DNA from: a virus
Reading direction: 5' to 3' (one strand)
DNA: 64,000 nucleotides
Virus record (IMG/VR): IMGVR_UViG_3300038426_000075
Coordinates: 1-64,000 of that record
Below are positions 17,075 to 57,167 of the stretch, one piece after another. The notes beneath the pieces were generated by a model. That model searched no databases, was not told the origin of the DNA, and worked only from the letters and a program-made list of their open reading frames with translations. Numbering within the stretch: position 1 is the stretch's first letter; every line of letters starts with the position of its first letter. A program made the position numbers and the translations under genes.

Positions 17075-17536
17075 ATGAAAACTAAAGAAGAAATACGCTC
17101 ACTTTTTTCAGCAAGATTACGTGAAATTGCCCAAAAAAGATTTGGTTATCAACCCGGAAAAGATCACGGAATGCGAACAGATATCGCAAATGAATTGAAG
17201 ATTAGTGTCGGAACGGTACAGCAGTGGTTTGATGAGGAAAAAGAAACTATGCCCGATGTTATGCAATTCCTTAAAATTCATGATGCCTTTGGAATTACCC
17301 CGAATGAACTTTTGGGGATTGAAGAGATACAACCTAAAGAATTCATTCCTCCTGTAGAAATTACAGAGGATTTTGTATCATTCCCAATACAAATATTTGA
17401 CTCAACCATTCAAACCGGTGGCCAATTCTTAGGGCAGGTCATCATTCACAAAAGGGTGTTTGGAAGAAGAAAAAACCTTGCTGCCGTTTACCTAAATGGG
17501 GGAAAAGAAATAAAAGTAGTGATTGTTGGAAAATGA
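17075..17536 (+). CDS. CI-like XRE repressor lacking an intact S24 peptidase domain
   Basis: HTH DIANELKISVGTVQQWF...MPD...FGITPNELLG; divergent from Cro-like gene. Confidence 0.85.
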   Translation: MKTKEEIRSLFSARLREIAQKRFGYQPGKDHGMRTDIANELKISVGTVQQWFDEEKETMPDVMQFLKIHDAFGITPNELLGIEEIQPKEFIPPVEITEDFVSFPIQIFDSTIQTGGQFLGQVIIHKRVFGRRKNLAAVYLNGGKEIKVVIVGK

Positions 17537-18300
17537 AAAGTATCTTAAAGGGCACAAAGAGAAAAACCCTACTTTCCGTATTGACAATCGTTGTCCTCTC
17601 TAGTTGTTCGGTCAATGATTTCTTTGGCCACCAAACCACACAATATATCGCCGTTAGAGAGGTAAAAGGCAAAAGTACGCTCAAAGGTACATACGATGTT
17701 GAGCGGGCACTTAGTGAGGGTGTTCCAGAAGAAGAGATAGCACGGTATCTTGCTATTACCCGCAACTTTGACGTTGATAGGTACATAAAGGCGGGCTTCA
17801 CATATAGGGAGATAATTGATTACCTTGCCAAGCAGCCTAAAATAGGCGGAGAAGTAAAGATAGAATGGAAACGTCACAAAATAGTGTACAAAGTCTATCC
17901 CGATAAACAGGATGTCGTCTATTGGGTAGAGACTTCCGATGGTAAAGAACGTTCTCCACTTTCTCGGGTTGGAAACTGCATTGTGGCGGATTCTGATAAT
18001 TGGGAGGGAGAGATGGATTATGGTTCTTGGCCCTGGCCAAGGAGAGTTGAAATTATTAATGGAAAGTCCAAATTTGATGGTCTTGAGTTGACGAAAGTTG
18101 GATGGTGGAAGTGGAATTTTGACAAGGAAAACTTTCAGGGTTCAGTAATTATCAGTACGACTTGGTTTGTGTGGAACAATCATTTGGTATGGATTCTATC
18201 GGGCATTGGGGTCCTTTTAATTATCCTATATGGTTGGCATTCCGATACCGAAGATAAGAAACGCAAGAGGCAGGAAGCAAGGCAAGCAAAGGAGGAATAG
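17533..18300 (+). CDS. Membrane lipoprotein carrying a copy of the ejection-protein N-terminal module; candidate superinfection exclusion
   Basis: Lipobox LSSC, C-terminal TM helix, aa 54-99 similar to N-terminus of 21152-26224 product. Confidence 0.75.
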   Translation: MKSILKGTKRKTLLSVLTIVVLSSCSVNDFFGHQTTQYIAVREVKGKSTLKGTYDVERALSEGVPEEEIARYLAITRNFDVDRYIKAGFTYREIIDYLAKQPKIGGEVKIEWKRHKIVYKVYPDKQDVVYWVETSDGKERSPLSRVGNCIVADSDNWEGEMDYGSWPWPRRVEIINGKSKFDGLELTKVGWWKWNFDKENFQGSVIISTTWFVWNNHLVWILSGIGVLLIILYGWHSDTEDKKRKRQEARQAKEE

Positions 18301-18304
18301 AGGA

Positions 18305-18577
18305 ATGAGAAAACCGAATTCGACTCAGAGAATATTTCAAGACAGGTTTATTGCGGAGGCAGAGCGGCGGCTGGGGATGGGTCGTTATCACCGAGGGTTT
18401 ATGACTGAGGTGACACGATCCCTCAAAATGAAGCAGGTCTCCGTGGTCCAGCGGTGGCTCGAAGGATGGATGCCACGGCTGCCCCATCTGTTAAAAATCT
18501 ACAGGGAGTGGGGAGTCACACCCAATAAATTGTTGGGGATTGAAGAGGAGTCACGATCCAGGCCAAAGCGGAAATGA
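18305..18577 (+). CDS. Second XRE HTH protein, paralogue of the repressor N-terminal domain
   Basis: VVQRWLEGWMP...LKIYREWGVTPNKLLGIEE vs TVQQWFDEEKETMP...LKIHDAFGITPNELLGIEE; SD before ATG 18305. Confidence 0.8.
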   Translation: MRKPNSTQRIFQDRFIAEAERRLGMGRYHRGFMTEVTRSLKMKQVSVVQRWLEGWMPRLPHLLKIYREWGVTPNKLLGIEEESRSRPKRK

Positions 18578-18601
18578 TTCGTTCCGCTCAAGGAGGTTTC
18601 T

Positions 18602-19048
18602 ATGAAAATTACAACCCTAAGTGCCTTTCTTATTGTCCTGCTTATTCTTCCTACCCCGATACTCGCTCAAAAAAATTACCTCATTATTGACGGGAAGAAA
18701 TACGAACTTGCTCCAGGACCAAGTTATTACGATGCCCATCCTGAAGAGAGAAACGCTACAACCCAACCCAACAAACCAATTGATGGCACTGGAACAAGAG
18801 AACAAGGGAATGAAGGAGGAAGCCATATCGATTACCCCTCGGCCCCTCCACCGCCACCCCCTTCATCTGCACCTCCTCCTCCATCTATGCGGATCGGCGT
18901 TCGTGGTGGAGTAATTGATGGCCAAACAGGGGATTTTTACCCACAAGTAAAAGGCGGTGTAGTTAATCCTCGAACCGGAGAATTTCTACCTGATGTTGAA
19001 AAAGGATATATTGATCTGGGAACAGGTGAATTCATCCCCAAGCGATAG
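18602..19048 (+). CDS. Exported Pro-rich protein carrying an ejection-protein peptide; candidate superinfection exclusion
   Basis: Signal peptide, PSYYDAHPEER motif, poly-Pro linker, three TG[DE]F.P repeats. Confidence 0.7.
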   Translation: MKITTLSAFLIVLLILPTPILAQKNYLIIDGKKYELAPGPSYYDAHPEERNATTQPNKPIDGTGTREQGNEGGSHIDYPSAPPPPPPSSAPPPPSMRIGVRGGVIDGQTGDFYPQVKGGVVNPRTGEFLPDVEKGYIDLGTGEFIPKR

Positions 19049-19051
19049 ATA

Positions 19052-20179
19052 ATGGCTTCAATCCAAAAATTCGCCAGGCTTGGCCACCGGATTTATTGGA
19101 GACTTTATCTTCCTGACGGCACATTTAAAGAAAAGTACAAAGCTTCCAGCTCCAAGACGGTCCTGCAGGAGATTCTTGCAGACATTATCAAGATCGAATC
19201 TCTTTCACGCCGGAGAGAACTATCGGGGCAGGATCTTGTCCGGGCCCTGAACATGGGGATCATCACTCGGGCCGAAATAGACTTCTTCAGACCTCACGTA
19301 GAACCCCTGGAACCACACTTTCTTGTGGAGTTGAGGCCGGAGTTCGAAAATCTCTCGAAAGCCCAATCAACAGCCCACCACACCCACATGGCCAACCTCT
19401 CCAAGGCAAACGTTATTGAGGAGTATTTCCGGGCCATTCCGATAAATGAGATCACGCCAGAGGCAATCGAAAGATTCAGGGTGGAACGGAAGCGAACGGT
19501 CACAAACACGACGGTCAACCACGACCTGAAGGTCCTCCGGAAGTATCTGGATATCGCCGTAAGCAAGAAATTGATCAAGAATAACTCGGCCAGAAAGACC
19601 ACACTTCTACGTGAACCAAAGGACAGAATTCCAAGGTGCTTCTACCCCGCTGAGTTAAAAACTTTCTTCCGGGGACTGAAAAGATTTAGACACCTCCTTT
19701 ATGGGGAGATGCCTTTTATTGTCCGTACCCTTATCTACACCGGCCTCAGAAGATCGGAACTTTGCAATCTGAAGCCCGAGAATATAAAGTTCCACCTTCG
19801 TCAGATCCATCTGATCGGCAAGGGCAGGAAGACCAGAATCGTAGGAATCCACCGATCACTTGTCAGGGAATTCAGAACCAGGATCAAAAAGGGTTACATC
19901 CTTCGACCCGGGATTGATCCGTCATCTATCAGCCATGCGTTTAAGAAAATGATTAGAGGTTTGGATCTTGCTGAAGCACTCACTCTGCATTCACTTCGTC
20001 ATACCTACATCTCTTATCTCCTTGAAAAAGGCGCCCCGACAAAGAAGGTCCAGGAGCACGCCGGCCACTTCAGCCTTGCCGTGACAGACCACTACACCCA
20101 TGCACTACCATCTGAGGTTGTGATTGAAGATATACTTGATTTTGAGGGTCCAAAAGTGGACAAAAGAGGCAAAAAATAG
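19052..20179 (+). CDS. int: Tyrosine integrase
   Basis: YTGLRRSEL, GKGRK, HSLRHTY, AGH, TDHY catalytic motifs. Confidence 0.95.
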   Translation: MASIQKFARLGHRIYWRLYLPDGTFKEKYKASSSKTVLQEILADIIKIESLSRRRELSGQDLVRALNMGIITRAEIDFFRPHVEPLEPHFLVELRPEFENLSKAQSTAHHTHMANLSKANVIEEYFRAIPINEITPEAIERFRVERKRTVTNTTVNHDLKVLRKYLDIAVSKKLIKNNSARKTTLLREPKDRIPRCFYPAELKTFFRGLKRFRHLLYGEMPFIVRTLIYTGLRRSELCNLKPENIKFHLRQIHLIGKGRKTRIVGIHRSLVREFRTRIKKGYILRPGIDPSSISHAFKKMIRGLDLAEALTLHSLRHTYISYLLEKGAPTKKVQEHAGHFSLAVTDHYTHALPSEVVIEDILDFEGPKVDKRGKK

Positions 20180-24100: not shown

Positions 24101-26224
24101 CTGAGTTGCAAGTGATTGCAAGTCGGGGTAGTCGGCTAAAACTTCGGGGGAGACGGGTTTGCCTTTTTCAACAGCATCCTGCACTTCATATTGATGGAGT
24201 GATCTTGCCGTTTTCTTATCAAGAGTACCTTCTGGGTTGCTAGGATCAATTGAGCGGTCAACAAATTCCTTTTTTGTCATCTCCCACGGTTGCTTTCCTA
24301 CCATATCTGCCAGATTGACAGTTTCTTCAAATCCCTTCTCTTTATGGTGTCTAAGTTCGTGATCAAGAGCCCTTTGGAAACCTTGTCTACTTAAATCCTT
24401 TCTTAGATAGATATTGCCCTCTGCATCATTTGTCGAACCTAATCCAGTCCCCTCAACACCTTTTGGGAGTTCAACTTCTTCAACCTTATAAACCTTATGG
24501 CCTTCTACCTCAAAATAGTCCGTAGATTGATTAGGAACCTGGGATTTAAAGCGATTAAATAGAGAATCATAATTAATAACCCCCTCCTCACTCACTGGCA
24601 TGCCCTCTTTTGAGACTTCTTGACCAGCAAGGGGTTCGGTAGCCTCCATAATCGGAAATTCTTCGGGTGGAAGTTTGGCCGCTTCCTCCATATCTTTACG
24701 GGCTATTTCAGTAATAATATTCTCTTTTGGCTTCGCAACCGTCGGCATTTGCTGCCCCATCCCCATCATCTGGGGGATTGGTTGAGGAATAGGGGCTTGA
24801 ATGGGTGGTGCTGTCGGTGTTGGCTGTGGAGGTAGAGCAATTGGACCGACTCCCATCGGCAGAATTGGCTGAGGTGCTTCAATCGGTGGTGCCTCTGGCC
24901 GTGGAGCGATAGATGATGCCGGCGGCATGGTGGTTCCGACAGGTTCTGGTGTCTCGGTCCCAATTCCAGGAGGTCTTACCGGTTCTGGTTCTCCCGTAAT
25001 AGGGTTAATTTTAAACTCTGTTCCAACGGGAGCTTTTAGCCGCAAGATCGTCTTGGGTTTGGGTTCCATTAGCTGAAAACCTTGGCCTGGAGGCAATGCC
25101 AATTGAGCTCCTGCCTTTATTTCTGTAGCCGGTTGAACTGCTGGAGTCCCGGGGGCAGGAATCGTCGAGCCGACAACTTCTGGAACTTCCGGCGCCATCC
25201 CAGGAGGAGTAATTTGTGGACTCTCTGCGGGCTTGCCTGCCTCTGCAAAGGGAGGATATTCCTCTCCTTTGTTCCTTCGTCTCAGAGCCTCTTCCCTCCA
25301 CGATGGATTGTTCCAACGCCTTAGAACATCGCCTTCGGAATATCCCTTGTTCATCATGTCCTCAAGAGACTGTGTAACAAGACCACGTTCCTTATTTGTA
25401 AGGCTTCTAAGCCAAGGACCTATTGGCGTTTTTAAAAATCTGGTTAATACCGCTGGTAGTACTTCCTCCGCAATGGTACCAGCCGCTCTCATAGCAGTTG
25501 GAAAAGCTGCCCATTCCGCAGCAGTCATTGTTTCTTTTGCCAAGGATTCATAGGGAGAAATCTTCTTTTTCCCAGTAACCAATTCTTTCTCGATCTCTTT
25601 CAATTTCTCTGGATCAGTTGTCGTCCCAGGGGGGAAAAAGTCTCCCTTTAATTCTGCTCGACCTTCCTCTCCTGCATATTTCCCAAAGGGAATCGTAAAT
25701 TTTGCCACTTCCAATGCTGTCGGCGGAATCGCAGCCAAATAGGGATGGCGAGCAGCAAAGGGAGAAGTGACAACTTTAGGTTCGACAACGGGAGGCACCT
25801 TTGGTGTCGGCTTTACTGGCTCATGCGAAGGAATGGGTTCCTCTTTCGGAAATCCCGACAAATCAACTCCTGCTTCCGCAGGTGTTTCACGTGCAACCAC
25901 AGCTGTCATTGGAGAAGGCTTCGGTCTCTCTATCGGCTTCATGAGGTTCGGGTTGATCAAACCGGGAGGGGTGATAGGTGACACTGTTCGTTCCGGGACA
26001 AGAGGGGTAGGGGACTTCTCAACGATCGGTTTAGGCAAGGCTTCCTGTACGGTAGGTTTTGCTACAATACTCTTTTGAGGAGCGAGGTATTCGATGACCT
26101 CCCGATAGGGGACTCCTGCCTTCACAGCATCATCAAGCCGATAGTTTCTAGTTGCGGCCAGATGCTTAGCTATCTCTTCTTCTGGTACTCCATCCTTAAG
26201 TGCCTGCTCATAATTATATGGCAT
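21152..26224 (-). CDS. Large polyvalent / internal virion (ejection) protein with zincin-like domains
   Basis: 1690 aa, Pro-rich linkers, HELRH and HELIH...EELYAD motifs, tandem VDGD repeat; last large gene after tail genes. Confidence 0.75.
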   Translation of the reverse strand: MPYNYEQALKDGVPEEEIAKHLAATRNYRLDDAVKAGVPYREVIEYLAPQKSIVAKPTVQEALPKPIVEKSPTPLVPERTVSPITPPGLINPNLMKPIERPKPSPMTAVVARETPAEAGVDLSGFPKEEPIPSHEPVKPTPKVPPVVEPKVVTSPFAARHPYLAAIPPTALEVAKFTIPFGKYAGEEGRAELKGDFFPPGTTTDPEKLKEIEKELVTGKKKISPYESLAKETMTAAEWAAFPTAMRAAGTIAEEVLPAVLTRFLKTPIGPWLRSLTNKERGLVTQSLEDMMNKGYSEGDVLRRWNNPSWREEALRRRNKGEEYPPFAEAGKPAESPQITPPGMAPEVPEVVGSTIPAPGTPAVQPATEIKAGAQLALPPGQGFQLMEPKPKTILRLKAPVGTEFKINPITGEPEPVRPPGIGTETPEPVGTTMPPASSIAPRPEAPPIEAPQPILPMGVGPIALPPQPTPTAPPIQAPIPQPIPQMMGMGQQMPTVAKPKENIITEIARKDMEEAAKLPPEEFPIMEATEPLAGQEVSKEGMPVSEEGVINYDSLFNRFKSQVPNQSTDYFEVEGHKVYKVEEVELPKGVEGTGLGSTNDAEGNIYLRKDLSRQGFQRALDHELRHHKEKGFEETVNLADMVGKQPWEMTKKEFVDRSIDPSNPEGTLDKKTARSLHQYEVQDAVEKGKPVSPEVLADYPDLQSLATQAIPPTAQHLELMPEEYPEIDKVAVMQDGKVYTDSVHGQIIADEGLDPEKAISGYTMKKTGEFVPAEKIEGAPAPIAPIEKPALSPTAKDQFALPGIKQGLEMKGAKEGATPTLEGTPLGEAGKAAVQAEREKAYPRLPFAEPLGEELAGTIRELQGIIKSGEAGGVLAEGEGRYGSSMKIQQMLGGISAGKEETIKAINKGLNGEKLGLRQQQIFERVKQTANAIIQDRAEADLWTSKKEAIQSLTASVDNEIMGWKEEQRGKGISEENITRRLGEAQKTIETEEGPPDLEAIKKALTESETSPVVKEPLAEISPADLHTQVNAKEYKKEGPVTAFIVDGDLIRKNIDEEFTNFSYHQNSPYIPENEIWLDKEIKNADYGYLLDNATKQRQLMSEGKSYDEALKQGNAIEQRERTRDNPPQKSDKKLNPQLIEDAKKQLLGTIGKDKTQVWLVDGDMIRKVDSSWTEGGNDGAYKWFPKNTVAVDDQISPEERTAIIVHEGTERDRIINQGMKYPDAHKLSSQDEHEYREDPAKFEASKKFAGVKLEPAPVEEKAGNWKKGESRPFTFDPNSTENEGRFRLLPSTNIKGVSYFRRKSRTNGVSYIMGKDKTTGDEVTQAIRFNKAIMPEEKAAKWWEENKGRFPFSDVSKIELPEGYKIQEVAGKFDIYRPDGELAGTRNTEGDAIKYAQAHEKEFETKEISQMKGAFDESKIKKIGITEAIKKLKSEIESSTGRKLADDALAEVRVPKSGKAISELGRTFGKKVVFFDTKEVVSFNGIVIPEEPDTIYLHIKSSAPHLFVIGHELIHTLKSEQPTLYKKFIDATDDLIQDFSVYRVGLNLSKKQSGMPRFESAEEVKEELYADFSGQQFMNKDFWNILHDREPSLFKKVVNVAKNIIDRIVKRLGKLIPLNNRFFKDIKKAQSNLADAMGKYAAEKVQIPPVYSAIPFAIPAFMGRGENDKKRVHPPGQGAPSYLPPGMGL

Positions 26225-27902: not shown

Positions 27903-30764
27903 CTATTCTCCTTCTGGGAACCACTGACCATTGCGCTTAATATAATTTTTGCCACCAACCGTACTTCTTTCTTCGCCCCCCACTACTGGTGCTCCCACAC
28001 CCGCAGGATTCCCACCAAAATCAGCGGCACGTGACCCCGCTGCTCCACCTGGCCTAACGTTTTTTGGTTCACCGGGCAGAGATGGAATCTTTCCCACTGA
28101 CTCCTGTACCGATGAGTCCAATGCATCTATCTTATTCTGCATTTCTGATTTCAAGAATTTACTTACTTCCACAAGGGCCTTATGAGTAAAACCAGCTTCA
28201 ATAAATTTATTGGCAATAGCTCTCTGCTCATTCTGGATAACTGCCCCTCCAATACCCATTGATCCCATCATCCTCGCATATTCGGTTACTACCGTTTGAA
28301 CCGCATCGTACAACTTGATGGCATTTGGATCGCTTAATAATCTTATTTGTCCGGTACGAATAGCATCATTTAAGACCGGGATTGATGTTCTCGGGAGGTT
28401 CTTTGAAATATCAACCATTAAGTTTATATTCCTATCAACCATTCCTTCAAAGGCCCCTGCATTTGCCCTTAGTTTTATCAGACCAGCAGTTGCCTCTTTC
28501 TGTCCCTTGAGAACCATCTGATTGGCCAGAATCATTTTATCTCCCATTCCCTCTTCTTTTGCCACACGTCCAGCAACTTTATAGAATTCCATCATGGCGA
28601 TTGAGCCACCCATACCTGGGAATCTGGGTGGTTCACCGCCTCGCAACCACATTCGGGCCGAAAGTTCTAAGGCATTTTTCATTTCAGGAGTAGAAATCTG
28701 CCCTATTGAAACAGAGGCAATGTTCGGAGGGATAACTGCCGGAACCCATTTATTTCCAGCCCCCAGGGTTGCCGAAGGTACAAATCCTTCAGGCTTTCCC
28801 ATCTTTTGCCATGTATCTTTGGCCTCCTTGATGGCTTCATTCTTATCTGGATAACCCTTCTGTCCTTCTCCCTTAACTTCTGCCTGCTTGGCTAAAATCT
28901 CACCGGGATAAGGTTCTCTATTAGTTATTCCCTTATTTATAAGATCTTGCTTTACCGCAGCTGTTTCCAACCCAAGTTGAGTCAGGGGTGCCGTTTTCCT
29001 CATTCCCCTTGCCTCAGCCGCAGCAACTCTCTCCTCTGACGTGAAAATTTTCTCTGGTATTCCCGCAGTCGTCCCGGTTAGACGTGCTAACTGCTCTGTA
29101 AGTATTGGAATATTCTTTAATGCCGCATCACGCTGTGCCCTTGCCGTCTTGGGATTCTGAGACAACCCATAGCCCTGAGCAATGTTTTTGGCGTCATCAA
29201 GAGATTTCTGGATTGCATCTATTGAAGATTTAGTCTCCCCTTTGGCCATCTCCATGAAGCGTTCTTCGGGGTGGACATCGTAGTAGGTTGGTTCTGGACC
29301 CAATGAAGCTAACGCTTCTTCTCTTCTGGTTTTTGTCCCCCTCTCTAACGTTGGCCTTAACGTCTCCAATGCCTCTTCCTGGGTAGGACGAACCCATCCT
29401 TTAGGAGTTGTAATTCCACCTTGACCTTCTGCACTGCGTATGGAATAACGGGTTTCTCCAGAGGGAAGAACTTCTTTATTAATATCAGAAAGGTTTCCCG
29501 ATATACCGCCCTCTACCGGTTTGGTGGGTTCAGTCCCTGCGACCGGTGTCTGTTCCACCTTTTGAGCCTTGGGAACAATCACAGTTGGCACACGAGAGGA
29601 AGCAAGAGATTCTATCGGAAACGCTGTTTTTAGTAGTGCTACACGTCTTTTGCGTTCTTCTTCCGTCATCCCTTCCTCAAGATTAGGAGAAGTAGCCCCT
29701 CCAACATCCCTTGACAATAGTGGTGTCATACCAGGAGCTCCCGATGCCGCTTTTAAACGCTCATATAAATCTGGCGCCTGGGCAATTCCGTACTTCTTAT
29801 TGTAAGCGGCCAACTGATCGGAACCAAACACGGGGGATCCCTTATTCTCCTTAAATGGAGGAGGGGTCAATTCCGGTGATGAAGCTTTTGGTGGAGGTGG
29901 CGGCGTTGCCGTATCGAGTTCTTCTTCTTCAGGTTTCCAGATACGCTGAGGAGCGTATGAGGCTAAAGAAAGTGTGGATGTCAATGGTAGAGGCTTCGGT
30001 TCTAACGACTCCAAATTAGAAACCCATGGCGAGACATGGATAGGAGTAGACTTTAATAATGATGTGTTACGTCCCGCTTCAATTCCTTGTTGGGTGGAAG
30101 CTCCCAAATTTTCATAAGAGGTTTCTTTAAAAAGGCTTGGATTGACTTCTCCACCCTCTTGCTTCGGGATAAGTGGCATTGTTGATCCAGCTTCCGCAGG
30201 TCCTGTCGTTGATGTTTGCTTCCCTTCCGGGGCAAAAGAACTCAACCCTCCCTCCGACCTACCAGCTTTCATTCCGGGTCGGTAGTATATTGATTGATCG
30301 CTGAAAGACGGGTGCCCTGGTAATTTATAGGTATCTGGTAAATGTTCCGTTGTACTCCTATGTCCTTTTAGCCAAGCTCCTCGAGTGTCGTAAAAGTGTC
30401 TCGGATCATCTGGATTTGGATTGAGGCCCATATTCTTTGCACGCTCCGCATACCATCCCTGAAAATTCTTTTCCATCTCGGGCGTAAATGAGGACTTCCA
30501 GTCCGGGGGTTGCCATCCAGGGCCTACTTCTCCCCCGTCTTGTCTCGATTCCAACGGTATGACATTTCCTTTTTTTGCAGGGAAGTATACTCCAGGAGCT
30601 GTTACCACTTCTGGATTCGGCCTTCCGTCGGGCTTCGTCTCGGCGATCGTATAACCATGTGTCGGCTTCGGCACTTTTGGAGGCCTCGGCTCCTTCAGGA
30701 TATCCGAGAGGATATCAACCAGTCTCACATTCGTCCGTTTGTGCCAGTCCTGCGAAAGTTCCAT
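27903..30764 (-). CDS. Putative DNA ejection / internal virion protein
   Basis: 953 aa, low-complexity N half, helical C half, repeated QxGGEV motif; position in ejection block. Confidence 0.65.
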   Translation of the reverse strand: MELSQDWHKRTNVRLVDILSDILKEPRPPKVPKPTHGYTIAETKPDGRPNPEVVTAPGVYFPAKKGNVIPLESRQDGGEVGPGWQPPDWKSSFTPEMEKNFQGWYAERAKNMGLNPNPDDPRHFYDTRGAWLKGHRSTTEHLPDTYKLPGHPSFSDQSIYYRPGMKAGRSEGGLSSFAPEGKQTSTTGPAEAGSTMPLIPKQEGGEVNPSLFKETSYENLGASTQQGIEAGRNTSLLKSTPIHVSPWVSNLESLEPKPLPLTSTLSLASYAPQRIWKPEEEELDTATPPPPPKASSPELTPPPFKENKGSPVFGSDQLAAYNKKYGIAQAPDLYERLKAASGAPGMTPLLSRDVGGATSPNLEEGMTEEERKRRVALLKTAFPIESLASSRVPTVIVPKAQKVEQTPVAGTEPTKPVEGGISGNLSDINKEVLPSGETRYSIRSAEGQGGITTPKGWVRPTQEEALETLRPTLERGTKTRREEALASLGPEPTYYDVHPEERFMEMAKGETKSSIDAIQKSLDDAKNIAQGYGLSQNPKTARAQRDAALKNIPILTEQLARLTGTTAGIPEKIFTSEERVAAAEARGMRKTAPLTQLGLETAAVKQDLINKGITNREPYPGEILAKQAEVKGEGQKGYPDKNEAIKEAKDTWQKMGKPEGFVPSATLGAGNKWVPAVIPPNIASVSIGQISTPEMKNALELSARMWLRGGEPPRFPGMGGSIAMMEFYKVAGRVAKEEGMGDKMILANQMVLKGQKEATAGLIKLRANAGAFEGMVDRNINLMVDISKNLPRTSIPVLNDAIRTGQIRLLSDPNAIKLYDAVQTVVTEYARMMGSMGIGGAVIQNEQRAIANKFIEAGFTHKALVEVSKFLKSEMQNKIDALDSSVQESVGKIPSLPGEPKNVRPGGAAGSRAADFGGNPAGVGAPVVGGEERSTVGGKNYIKRNGQWFPEGE

Positions 30765-55748: not shown

Positions 55749-57167
55749 CTAAAAGTGAAAGTCGTCTCCCTTCATGGCGTTCACTTCTTTGATAATTTGA
55801 AGCACATCCGTCTCGAACTTTGCAGGAAACGAGCTATTGGACATCTCGATCTGGGAAGCGATCTTACCGGCCGCATCCACTGCGGCTTTCGGAGTCTTCC
55901 CGTGGCCCATGGCGGTCGCAACTACCTGATCGCCGGGAACAAACCAATAGTCTCCCGCCTTCCTTACGATGCGCCTAAAGCCCATGTCTTTTCTTATTTC
56001 TTGAGGAAAGTGGATCACCTCCCATGATTTGATATCGTCGGTGTAAACGCCGACCTGTGTGACGTATCCAGGATCCACTTCGGCCCGAACGTCCTGACCG
56101 GCCGCAATCTTGTAGGTATATTCGGGATAATTCTTTATGAATCTGGATTGGATCGCACCGCAGGGCCACGCATCACGAGAGGTTGGATCGTGGACTCTAA
56201 CTTTCCTTCCGTCCCAAAAGAATTCGAAGCTGATATTCCCATGGTAACCAGACTTGATCAGGGAAGGCTTTACTTTGTTGAGAATATGCTCATCGATCCC
56301 ATTTTCTTCCACCCAAACTCCGATGGTTCCCTCTCCTTTGACTTCTATCGTGTAGAGGAAGGGCCGGATATAATCCCTTCCATTGAAACCTACGTCAACA
56401 CCCAATTCGAGGCCTGGACACGCACGCTGGATCAGGATCTCCATGGTGGTAAGATATGGCCCAAAACCGGCCTGTGTAAGAGCCACGAGGGCCTGTGTTC
56501 GGGTCTTTACCCCCTTCCCCGTCTCTTTATTGCCTCGATATTCGCCAACCTTCGGGAAGAAGAGCGTCTTTCCATCCTCGTTCTTTTCGATGTAATCAAG
56601 GCACTCATCCAAACCATGAACCACGACACCATCAGGGACCCCCACACCCATCTCTTGGAGCCTCTGCCATCCCTTCACACGATTGTTTTCATTCTCTGCC
56701 CACCACGCAGAAGGTCCATAAACGTCTTTGCCTTCTCCACGCCAGATATCGGCATCCTTGCCAAAGCAACAGTCGGTAATGACAACAAAATCCTTGGAGG
56801 CAGCCTCCATCATGCTATCCACCTTATGGAGTCCCTTAAACCCATCTCCTGAAATTTTGTTCTCAATGGACGGGTAGGCCGCCGCGCCGGCAATAAAATA
56901 ATAGACTTCGAACTCCTTCATCAGTGCAAGGGCATGATCAATACCCAGGTTCGTATCGATGAAGCCAACGGTCCGCGGCATCCCATGTTCTCGCTTAAGC
57001 ATAGGAAGAGCTTTGGTCGCTTTTGCTGTCTGATAATTGGCGATTTCTGCATAGGAATATCCTTCTTTGTGCGCCTCTTCGACCTTAAAACCCGTAAATC
57101 CAGCGAGATAAAAAGCTATCTCCCGGTATGAATGACCCTCTTTTCTTTGGCCTTCAACATCGTACAT
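55749..57167 (-). CDS. PurD-like ATP-grasp enzyme with N-terminal ejection-protein-type module
   Basis: VYGPS....ENNR..G...QEMGV.VP, TGKGV, GLELGVD; aa 2-47 match the shared YDVE..G..EIA.YLA module. Confidence 0.7.
   Translation of the reverse strand: MYDVEGQRKEGHSYREIAFYLAGFTGFKVEEAHKEGYSYAEIANYQTAKATKALPMLKREHGMPRTVGFIDTNLGIDHALALMKEFEVYYFIAGAAAYPSIENKISGDGFKGLHKVDSMMEAASKDFVVITDCCFGKDADIWRGEGKDVYGPSAWWAENENNRVKGWQRLQEMGVGVPDGVVVHGLDECLDYIEKNEDGKTLFFPKVGEYRGNKETGKGVKTRTQALVALTQAGFGPYLTTMEILIQRACPGLELGVDVGFNGRDYIRPFLYTIEVKGEGTIGVWVEENGIDEHILNKVKPSLIKSGYHGNISFEFFWDGRKVRVHDPTSRDAWPCGAIQSRFIKNYPEYTYKIAAGQDVRAEVDPGYVTQVGVYTDDIKSWEVIHFPQEIRKDMGFRRIVRKAGDYWFVPGDQVVATAMGHGKTPKAAVDAAGKIASQIEMSNSSFPAKFETDVLQIIKEVNAMKGDDFHF

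What the first reader, a model, noticed from the sequence alone, without database searches (positions are those of the whole stretch)
18716..18751. Second exported protein shares P[ST]YYD[AV]HPEER with the 953-aa ejection-type protein
Seen: PSYYDAHPEER (aa 40-50, soon after the signal peptide) vs PTYYDVHPEER (aa ~492-502 of 27903-30764; DNA ~29259-29291), 9/11 identical, with many synonymous codon differences. This points to protein-level conservation rather than recent copying. A poly-Pro linker and three TG[DE]F.P repeats follow; these weakly resemble INPITGEP and KKTGEFVP in the 1690-aa protein. Inference: a short linear motif decoy.
Basis: partly seen in the sequence, partly recalled or inferred. 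Interest (0 to 1): 0.8.

Follow-up and report, generated by a model that had tools for sequence, protein, structure and literature searches.

The report
Exported copy of virion-protein hallmark motif
A temperate phage from peat encodes, right before its integrase, a small secreted protein that carries a conserved copy of the most invariant stretch of one of its own large virion-block proteins; it may jam DNA entry by related phages, but nothing has been tested.

Summary
The 148-aa signal-peptide protein (18602-19048) and the 953-aa late protein (27903-30764) share L.P.P.YYD.HPEER (11/15 identical). Six of the nine base differences in the 11-codon core are synonymous.

It is not chance and not only a short motif. 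A profile comparison aligns 55 columns (E 4.5e-9). Other small-family members carry 64-97 aa copies of the same central segment (up to 68% identity, E 7e-37).

YY..HPEE is the hallmark of the large family. Four of the five invariant columns across 30 diverse members lie in it. AlphaFold puts it at the cap of a confident helical hairpin.

The small protein is built as signal peptide, copied module, poly-Pro linker and a C-terminal three-repeat beta module. Other phage-borne exported proteins end in that same module.

The gene sits in the lysogeny module, after an XRE regulator and before int. The neighbouring lipoprotein likewise copies the N-terminus of the 1690-aa protein.

Best reading (about 0.4): a prophage-expressed envelope mimic that excludes related phages. 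The function, the "ejection" role of the 953-aa protein and the host are unproven. The claimed TGEF likeness to the 1690-aa protein is chance-level.

The scan noted similar "exported mimic" cases on other DNA; all are untested.

The parts
18602..19048 (+). Gene for the 148-aa exported protein (P0001), with AGGAGG 7 nt upstream of the ATG; its stop lies 3 nt before the integrase ATG
   Evidence: orthologues at 55-90% identity
18602..18667 (+). Sec-type signal peptide (aa 1-22), predicted cleavage ILA|QK; no lipobox Cys
   Evidence: sequence; only hydrophobic stretch; conserved in orthologues
18671..18709 (+). N-terminal beta hairpin KNYLIIDGKKYEL (aa 24-36); in other family members replaced by other flanks copied from large-family proteins
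   Evidence: AF2 strands 26-29 and 32-35 at low confidence; flank variants
18707..18826 (+). Copied module (aa 36-75), homologous to aa 488-535 of the 953-aa protein; trimmed by an 8-aa deletion relative to other small-family members
   Evidence: hhalign 96%, E 4.5e-9; alignments; profile hit E 2.4e-19
18719..18751 (+). Core motif PSYYDAHPEER (aa 40-50)
   Evidence: S41 Y42 Y43 D44 H46 P47 E48 E49 invariant in A3
18836..18886 (+). Pro-rich linker PSAPPPPPPSSAPPPPS (aa 79-95)
18887..19045 (+). C-terminal module of three GG.I.P.TG.F.P repeats (aa 96-148); predicted small beta meander; candidate envelope anchor
   Evidence: AF2 pLDDT 84-92; same module ends exported TPR and DUF4124 proteins on phage contigs; no Pfam or NCBIfam model
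27903..30764 (-). Gene for the 953-aa late protein (P0002), member of a large uncharacterised phage family (conserved N-terminus ..THGYTIAE..PEVVTAPGVYFP, central YY..HPEE)
   Evidence: syntenic virion block in L001-L006
29259..29291 (-). Core motif PTYYDVHPEER (aa 492-502) of the 953-aa protein
   Evidence: Y494, H498, P499, E501 invariant and Y495, E500 nearly invariant in 30 members
29064..29285 (-). Predicted helical hairpin (aa 494-567): motif as N-cap, helix 499-529, QGYGLS turn, helix 538-567
   Evidence: AF2 with 30-row alignment, block pLDDT 68-94 over aa 491-560
18305..18577 (+). XRE-type HTH gene (XRE-B) directly upstream; paralogue of XRE-A (17075-17536); an orthologue also precedes the small gene in L011 and sits in G001
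19052..20179 (+). Tyrosine integrase directly downstream, same strand
   Evidence: Pfam PF00589 E 1.8e-21, phrog_1 E 3.9e-43
17692..17844 (+). Context: aa 54-104 of the neighbouring lipoprotein (gene 17533-18300) copy aa 3-53 of the 1690-aa protein (26066-26218, - strand)
   Evidence: BLASTP 30/51 identical, E 2e-16

Best explanation
The 148-aa protein is a phage accessory protein exported to the cell envelope and made from the lysogeny module (XRE-B, this gene, int).

It is modular. A Sec signal peptide is followed by a copy of the hallmark central module of the phage's own 953-aa late protein: the YYD.HPEE helix cap, here with the following helix mostly trimmed away. Then come a poly-Pro spacer and a C-terminal three-repeat beta module that probably tethers or clusters it in the envelope.

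The most likely function is superinfection exclusion by mimicry. Displayed outside the cytoplasm, the copied module would occupy whatever the 953-aa protein's motif must bind when an incoming related phage delivers its DNA. That partner could be a host envelope component, or another part or copy of the delivery proteins. Occupying it would block entry.

Shown: the homology, its conservation in both families, the modular build and the genomic position.

Inferred: export, expression in lysogens, the envelope or ejection role of the 953-aa protein, and the exclusion function itself.
For: (1) The copy is real and selected.
- hhalign aligns small aa 21-75 with large aa 473-535: 96% probability, E 4.5e-9.
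- The motif is invariant in 6 small orthologues down to 64% identity.
- It holds 4 of the 5 invariant columns of 30 large-family members that are 24-80% identical to the window's protein.
- Six of the 9 base differences in the core are synonymous.

(2) Other small-family members carry longer copies.
- L010/P0031 vs P0020: 66/97 identical, E 2e-38.
- P0032 vs P0018: 64 aa at 66%, E 8e-23.
- P0005 vs P0017: 65 aa at 52%, E 3.5e-17.

(3) The pattern is mosaic. The motif plus downstream part of the small proteins clusters together on a tree (2 changes against a shuffled mean of 11; weak support). Their upstream flanks are of at least 4 kinds, each matching a different large-protein lineage. So flanks were repeatedly taken from large genes and kept in frame.

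(4) The warhead is constant while the anchors vary: TG.F repeats, FGNIVN repeats, IGN.TF repeats. The TG.F module also ends phage-borne exported TPR and DUF4124 proteins.

(5) Position. The gene is on the strand opposite the late genes, between an XRE regulator and int. In sister phage G001 the same slot holds other membrane or exported proteins, as expected of a cargo slot.

(6) There is a second case next door. A lipoprotein copies aa 3-53 of the 1690-aa protein (E 2e-16). These two are the only lysogeny-module/late-protein matches in an all-against-all BLAST of 94 ORFs.

(7) An exported copy implies that the motif acts outside the cytoplasm.

(8) Precedent for the target class: P22 SieA acts on ejection proteins gp16 and gp20 (PMC10883804), and Ltp is proposed to bind the tape measure protein of phage P008 (PMC3952083).
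Against: - There is no experiment, no RNA data and no known host, so even 'periplasm' is assumed.
- The 953-aa protein has no recognised family, fold or TM segment. Its ejection role rests on gene order and predicted disorder only.
- The window's own small protein has lost most of the helix that other family members keep, and its match to its own large protein (11/15) is no better than to some foreign ones. Tracking of the resident phage is therefore not shown here.
- Two related phages with the large protein lack the small one, so it is dispensable for the phage.
- Part of the motif's conservation (xPEE) is what any helix N-cap would show.
Confidence: 0.4

Rival explanations
1. It is an exported accessory (moron) protein with an envelope function other than exclusion. 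It could bind a host envelope component through the copied module to alter the lysogen's surface or fitness. It could also neutralise receptors or debris so that released progeny are not wasted, as phage T5 Llp does (from general knowledge).
For: The export signal, the variable cargo slot before int and the anchor module shared with TPR and DUF4124 accessory proteins on phage contigs all fit generic lysogenic-conversion cargo.
Against: This does not explain why the head is a conserved copy of the phage's own late protein, why longer copies were repeatedly re-acquired, or why the neighbouring lipoprotein also copies a late protein.
Confidence: 0.25
2. It is a helper for the phage's own life cycle. 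It would be an envelope-located partner or pilot that the phage's own virion proteins use during entry or release, or a regulator of lysis. The shared module would mediate homotypic contact with the 953-aa protein.
For: The module in the large protein is half of a predicted helical hairpin, and small-family members copy helix 1 but not helix 2, so they could pair with the large protein. A first-reader note (not checked here) reports several signal-peptide proteins inside this phage's structural operon (e1-6085811).
Against: The gene is absent from related phages that keep the large protein and is replaced by other cargo in G001. It lies in the lysogeny module, not among late or lysis genes. 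A helper needed for entry would have to pre-exist in the uninfected cell.
Confidence: 0.15
3. It is a counter-defence decoy. The exported copy would soak up a host envelope defence factor that attacks the 953-aa protein during entry.
For: Periplasmic defences against DNA entry exist (HXS system, PMC13128918, listed). A mimic of the target is a logical sponge.
Against: A product of the lysogeny module is made after entry. It would protect only later-arriving kin, which a prophage normally excludes rather than helps.
Confidence: 0.07
4. It is chance similarity, or a neutral by-product of recombination with no function.
For: The pairwise match in this window alone is short: 15 aa, E 1e-3 against the window's ORFs.
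Against: The profile-profile E is 4.5e-9. The profile finds 54 clusters, including about 7 small exported ones. Copies of 64-97 aa exist elsewhere. The motif is invariant in orthologues down to 64% identity. No shuffle out of 300 reached the observed score.
Confidence: 0.03

Closest known systems
Phage P22 SieA (superinfection exclusion A; Leavitt et al. 2024, PMC10883804)
   Same: It is a prophage-expressed envelope protein that blocks DNA entry of related phages. Its genetic targets are the phage's ejection proteins: escape mutations map to gp16 and gp20. It is the closest functional analogue of the proposed role.
   Different: SieA is an integral inner-membrane protein and is not reported to resemble its targets. 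The protein here is a soluble or tethered secreted protein built around a copy of its presumed target. No sequence relation was found: P0001 hits no Pfam, PHROG or NCBIfam family.
Ltp of Streptococcus thermophilus phage TP-J34 (PMC3952083, which cites Bebeacua et al. 2013)
   Same: It is a small exported protein of the 'lysogenic conversion' module of a temperate phage. It mediates superinfection exclusion, with a proposed binding site in the tape measure protein of phage P008.
   Different: Ltp is a lipoprotein of a Gram-positive host and is not described as a copy of a virion protein. P0001 has no lipobox Cys and a different build.
The unnamed YY..HPEE large-protein family of uncultured tailed phages (P0002, P0013-P0020, P0033-P0077)
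   Same: It shares a homologous central module: motif, helix and QGYG turn.
   Different: The small protein lacks the conserved N-terminal ..SHGYTIAE..PEVVTAPG region, the three L.SRQ.GG.V.P motifs, helix 2 and the C-terminal helical domain. It adds a signal peptide and an anchor module. It is a derived fragment, not a family member.
Virus-derived dominant-negative restriction genes of animals (general knowledge: mouse Fv4 and Fv1 types; review PMC6361761 listed, not read)
   Same: The concept is the same: a resident virus-derived copy of a structural protein interferes with entry of incoming relatives.
   Different: These belong to another domain of life, with whole or large parts of env or gag and a different mechanism. 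This is analogy only.

Membership tests
YY..HPEE large virion-block protein family (unnamed) | Central module with invariant Y, H, P, E (YY..HPEE) followed by a helix and a QG[YF]G turn | tested here: met
   P0001 aligns over 55 columns (hhalign E 4.5e-9). The module profile scores it at E 2.4e-19. In P0001 the helix is shortened by an 8-aa deletion.
YY..HPEE large virion-block protein family (unnamed) | Conserved N-terminus ..SHGYTIAE..PEVVTAPG.YFP, three L.SRQ.GG.V.P motifs, and a C-terminal helical domain | tested here: not met
   All are absent from the 148-aa protein, so it carries a piece of the family but is not a member.
Superinfection-exclusion proteins (functional class) | Expressed from the prophage | not testable with these tools
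   The position between an XRE regulator and int, on the strand opposite the late genes, is consistent. No RNA run holds the stretch.
Superinfection-exclusion proteins (functional class) | Located in the cell envelope | tested here: inconclusive
   A classical signal peptide is seen in the sequence and is conserved in orthologues. No dedicated predictor or experiment was available, and the host envelope type is unknown.
Superinfection-exclusion proteins (functional class) | Blocks adsorption or DNA entry of superinfecting phage | not testable with these tools
   The phage is uncultured, from peat metagenomes.
Ltp-type exclusion lipoproteins | Lipobox with Cys at the signal-peptide cleavage site | tested here: not met
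   P0001 contains no Cys anywhere; the cleavage region is ILA|QK. The neighbouring protein 17533-18300 does have LSSC.
Short linear motif (SLiM) | Short conserved peptide in an intrinsically disordered region, acting without a fold of its own | tested here: inconclusive
   In P0001 the region is predicted to be disordered (block pLDDT 41-53). In the 953-aa protein the motif caps a confident helix (block pLDDT 68-94), and other small-family members copy 50-97 aa.

The most novel reading that the evidence does not exclude
Temperate phages of this group carry a modular immunity system of cassettes in the lysogeny module. Each cassette is an XRE regulator plus an exported protein. Each exported protein displays a copy of a key segment of a different DNA-delivery protein of the phage itself: here the 953-aa hallmark motif and the 1690-aa N-terminal tag. 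The copy sits on an interchangeable envelope anchor. The copies poison or out-compete the incoming proteins in the envelope. They are refreshed by recombination with the large genes, so that the mimic keeps up with target variation.
Probability: 0.3. Interest if true: 0.85.

Novelty: new variant of a known kind. Interest (0 to 1): 0.65.

Why it matters
If the reading holds, it adds a simple and general principle to phage-phage competition: exclusion by displaying a piece of one's own entry machinery.

It would also give a bioinformatic handle. Any exported lysogeny-module protein that matches a late protein would flag both an exclusion gene and the functionally critical, extracytoplasmic segment of an otherwise unannotatable virion protein. 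Here that would single out YY..HPEE as the key site of a widespread uncharacterised phage family (54 clusters at 50% identity).

The analysis also defines an unannotated C-terminal repeat module used by several phage-borne exported proteins.

Tried and rejected
- Family searches. Pfam, PHROGs and NCBIfam gave no family for P0001 or P0002. PHROGs on 30 large-family members gave only phrog_13634, of unknown function, in 3 of them. A PDB sequence profile gave nothing.
- Fold searches. The P0001 model had a best Z of 3.7, a generic beta meander. The P0002 model gave no Foldseek PDB hit at E <= 1e-3, and BFVD hits only to uncharacterised phage proteins at TM <= 0.15. ESM Atlas gave no lead.
- Complex prediction (P0002 aa 536-953 with P0001 aa 23-95) returned no answer, score 0.00. 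This is not evidence either way.
I could therefore not fetch the contigs of P0003/P0013 (both listed with a longest contig of 92,287 bases), P0005, P0017 or P0031 to test whether each small protein matches the large protein of its own phage.
- Collection searches. IMG/VR holds no other contig with the small protein. Genome contigs gave one 4-kb MAG contig only. INPHARED phages gave no tblastn hit to P0002. The 'longer' search with the C-terminal module found none (weak evidence).
- Expression and variation. No RNA holder was listed. Contigs of four other peat runs laid on 18200-19400 were fragmentary and essentially identical (one C>T), with no cover over 18569-18732, so they gave no population variation.
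- Rejected ideas. The TGEF repeats as a second shared motif with the 1690-aa protein are at chance level. Chance similarity of the core motif is rejected. A spanin or lipoprotein reading of P0001 is rejected: it has no Cys and no TM segment.
- Own-phage tracking. P0001's 15-mer is 11/15 identical to its own lineage's large proteins but equally to two foreign ones, so tracking is not shown.

Full report
**1. What is in the sequence**

The ORF 18602-19048 (+) encodes a 148-aa protein, P0001, with AGGAGG 7 nt upstream of the ATG. It reads as follows:
- a classical signal peptide, MKITTLSAFLIVLLILPTPILA|QK;
- KNYLIIDGKKYEL;
- APGPSYYDAHPEER;
- a short polar stretch;
- PSAPPPPPPSSAPPPPS;
- three repeats of the type GG.I.P.TG.F.P.

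The ORF 27903-30764 (-) encodes a 953-aa protein, P0002, with PTYYDVHPEER at aa 492-502.

BLASTP extends the match to 11/15 identical residues, E 6e-5 for the pair. The two DNA stretches agree at 24/33 bases, and 6 of the 9 differences are synonymous. The ungapped score of 67 was never approached by 300 shuffles (mean 36.6, max 50; Gumbel p about 8e-5). An all-against-all BLAST of 94 window ORFs lists this pair at E 1e-3. The 88-kb record holds only these two copies.

**2. It is a homologous module, not a chance motif**

- Small-protein orthologues at 55-90% identity keep PSYYD[AT]HPEE[RK].
- Large-protein orthologues keep [ST]YY[DE][AV]HPEE.
- A profile-profile comparison of the two families aligns 55 columns (small aa 21-75 with large aa 473-535), probability 96%, E 4.5e-9.
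- A 66-position profile of the module was searched against 1.84 billion representative proteins. It found 54 clusters, 38 of them at E <= 1e-10. About 40 are large proteins of 440-1100 aa that share the N-terminus ..SHGYTIAE..PEVVTAPG.YFP. About 7 are small signal-peptide proteins.
- In an alignment of 30 large members 24-80% identical to P0002, the only invariant columns are P360, Y494, H498, P499 and E501. Y495 and E500 are nearly invariant. The motif is therefore the hallmark of that family.

**3. Longer copies and mosaicism**

Other small-family members carry much longer copies of the same central segment:
- L010/P0031 aa 49-144 vs large P0020 aa 363-459: 66/97 identical, E 2e-38.
- P0032 vs P0018: 64 aa at 66%, E 8e-23.
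- P0005 vs P0017: 65 aa at 52%, E 3.5e-17.

A tree of the motif plus 36 downstream residues groups the 12 small proteins together (2 changes against a shuffled mean of 11; branch support weak). Their upstream flanks are of at least four kinds: KNYLIIDGKKYEL.., SPLITNPYTNRVSG.., TEGTATVGPERFF..GDELARQRI.., and ..IKGG... The last three each match a different large-protein lineage.

The simplest history is one capture of the module, followed by repeated in-frame acquisition of flanks from large genes. In this window the own-lineage match (11/15) is tied with two foreign ones.

**4. Structure predictions**

With a 30-row alignment, AlphaFold2 models P0002 aa 1-480 as mostly disordered. The motif sits at the N-cap of a long helix (499-529; block pLDDT 68-94 over aa 491-560). 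QGYGLS forms a turn, and a second helix (538-567) completes a hairpin. A helical C-terminal domain and terminal beta hairpins follow.

Small-family members copy the motif, helix 1 and the turn, but not helix 2. P0001 itself has an 8-aa deletion and keeps little of helix 1. Its module region is predicted to be disordered (block pLDDT 41-53). Its C-terminal repeat module is confident (84-92) and forms a small beta meander.

Neither model has an informative structural neighbour. The 'PEE' part of the motif is what a helix N-cap commonly looks like (general knowledge). The invariant Tyr pair and His go beyond that.

**5. Modular build of the small family**

The C-terminal TG.F module has no Pfam or NCBIfam model. 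It also ends an exported 695-aa TPR protein (L013-L015) and exported DUF4124 proteins (L016, L017). Those contigs carry terminase, primase or integrase genes, so they are phage or mobile elements too.

Other small-family members replace the TG.F module with FGNIVN-type or IGN.TF-type repeats. So the copied module is the constant 'head' and the C-terminus is an interchangeable 'anchor'.

**6. Genomic context**

The window is part of an 88-kb IMG/VR virus record estimated at 94% complete. Fragments at least 99% identical occur in peat metagenomes of several studies.

Portal, major head, head-closure and other structural genes lie on the minus strand. The block 576-171-422-953-565-1690 aa ends the late operon and is syntenic in five related IMG/VR contigs.

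On the plus strand lie, in order:
- XRE-A (17075-17536);
- a lipoprotein (17533-18300);
- XRE-B (18305-18577), a paralogue of XRE-A at E 2e-11;
- P0001;
- a tyrosine integrase (19052-20179).

Following a first-reader note, I tested the lipoprotein. Its aa 54-104 copy aa 3-53 of the 1690-aa protein (30/51 identical, E 2e-16). The same tag heads the 55749-57167 protein. So both exported proteins of the lysogeny module copy a conserved piece of a different large late protein.

In sister phage G001 (large protein 83% identical, integrase 65% identical) the slot between XRE-B and int instead holds a small TM protein and an unrelated 90-aa signal-peptide protein. No lipoprotein cassette was found there. 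Two related phages keep the large protein but lack the small one. This is the behaviour of accessory cargo. In L010 and L012 the small gene also lies in accessory regions, near terminase or integrase genes.

**7. Interpretation**

An exported, conserved copy of the most invariant element of a late protein, placed in the lysogeny module, is best explained as a mimic acting outside the cytoplasm. The most economical function is superinfection exclusion, by competing with or poisoning the incoming protein.

Precedents exist for envelope exclusion proteins aimed at DNA-delivery proteins: P22 SieA acts on gp16 and gp20 (PMC10883804), and Ltp is proposed to bind the tape measure protein of phage P008 (PMC3952083). 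My literature searches found no described case in which the exclusion protein is built from a copy of its target.

The scan's own notebook lists several similar, untested cases on other DNA. These show the pattern recurs, but they are not independent evidence of function.

Weak points:
- The host is unknown.
- There are no expression data.
- The 953-aa protein has no TM segment, and its ejection role is only positional.
- The complex prediction gave no answer.

I put the exclusion-by-mimicry reading at about 0.4. Other envelope functions get 0.25, a helper role for the phage itself 0.15, a counter-defence sponge 0.07, and no function 0.03.

**8. Verdict**

This is a new variant of a known kind: an envelope exclusion-type accessory protein built by self-mimicry, with function untested. 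Interest 0.65.

Noticed in passing
window 17533-18300 (+), with 26066-26218 (-) and 55749-57167 (-): The lipoprotein (lipobox LSSC, C-terminal TM at aa 212-230) carries at aa 54-104 a copy of aa 3-53 of the 1690-aa protein (30/51 identical, E 2e-16). The same two-unit tag heads the 472-aa protein next to the portal (E 5e-5 and 7e-3).
   Followed up: partly
window 17075-17536 and 18305-18577 (+): Two paralogous XRE-type HTH genes (E 2e-11), each directly preceding one exported 'copy' protein. The XRE-B orthologue also precedes the small gene in L011 and is present in G001 (L019 305-583).
   Followed up: partly
window 18887-19045; L013 1243-3327; L016 1733-2398; L017 5365-6195: An unannotated C-terminal domain of about 50 aa (three GG.I.P.TG.F.P repeats; AF2 pLDDT 84-92; no PDB neighbour above Z 3.7) is shared by phage-borne exported TPR and DUF4124 proteins. 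It is a candidate envelope anchor.
   Followed up: partly
window 27903-30764 (-), aa 71-82, 198-209, 349-360: Three copies of L.SRQ.GG.V.P in the disordered N-terminal half of the 953-aa protein are nearly invariant across 30 family members. Their function is unknown.
   Followed up: no
L019 (G001:C1:71017-75114) 584-853 and 1216-1488: In the sister phage the slot between XRE-B and int holds a small TM protein and a different 90-aa signal-peptide protein. No lipoprotein cassette was found. This looks like a swappable cargo slot.
   Followed up: partly
window 18671-18709 vs 27906-27950 (-): The N-terminal hairpin of the small protein (KNYLIIDGKKYEL) weakly resembles the C-terminal hairpin of the 953-aa protein (GKNYIKRNGQWFPE). 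Other small variants (RIMIKGQWVD) resemble C-termini of other large members. No statistical test was done.
   Followed up: no
L018 (CAZUFK010000096.1) 51-1448: A 3979-bp contig binned into a Bathyarchaeia MAG encodes a 466-aa protein with SYYEAHPEEK and the downstream helix. It is probably a phage contig placed in the bin by mistake.
   Followed up: no
   Followed up: no
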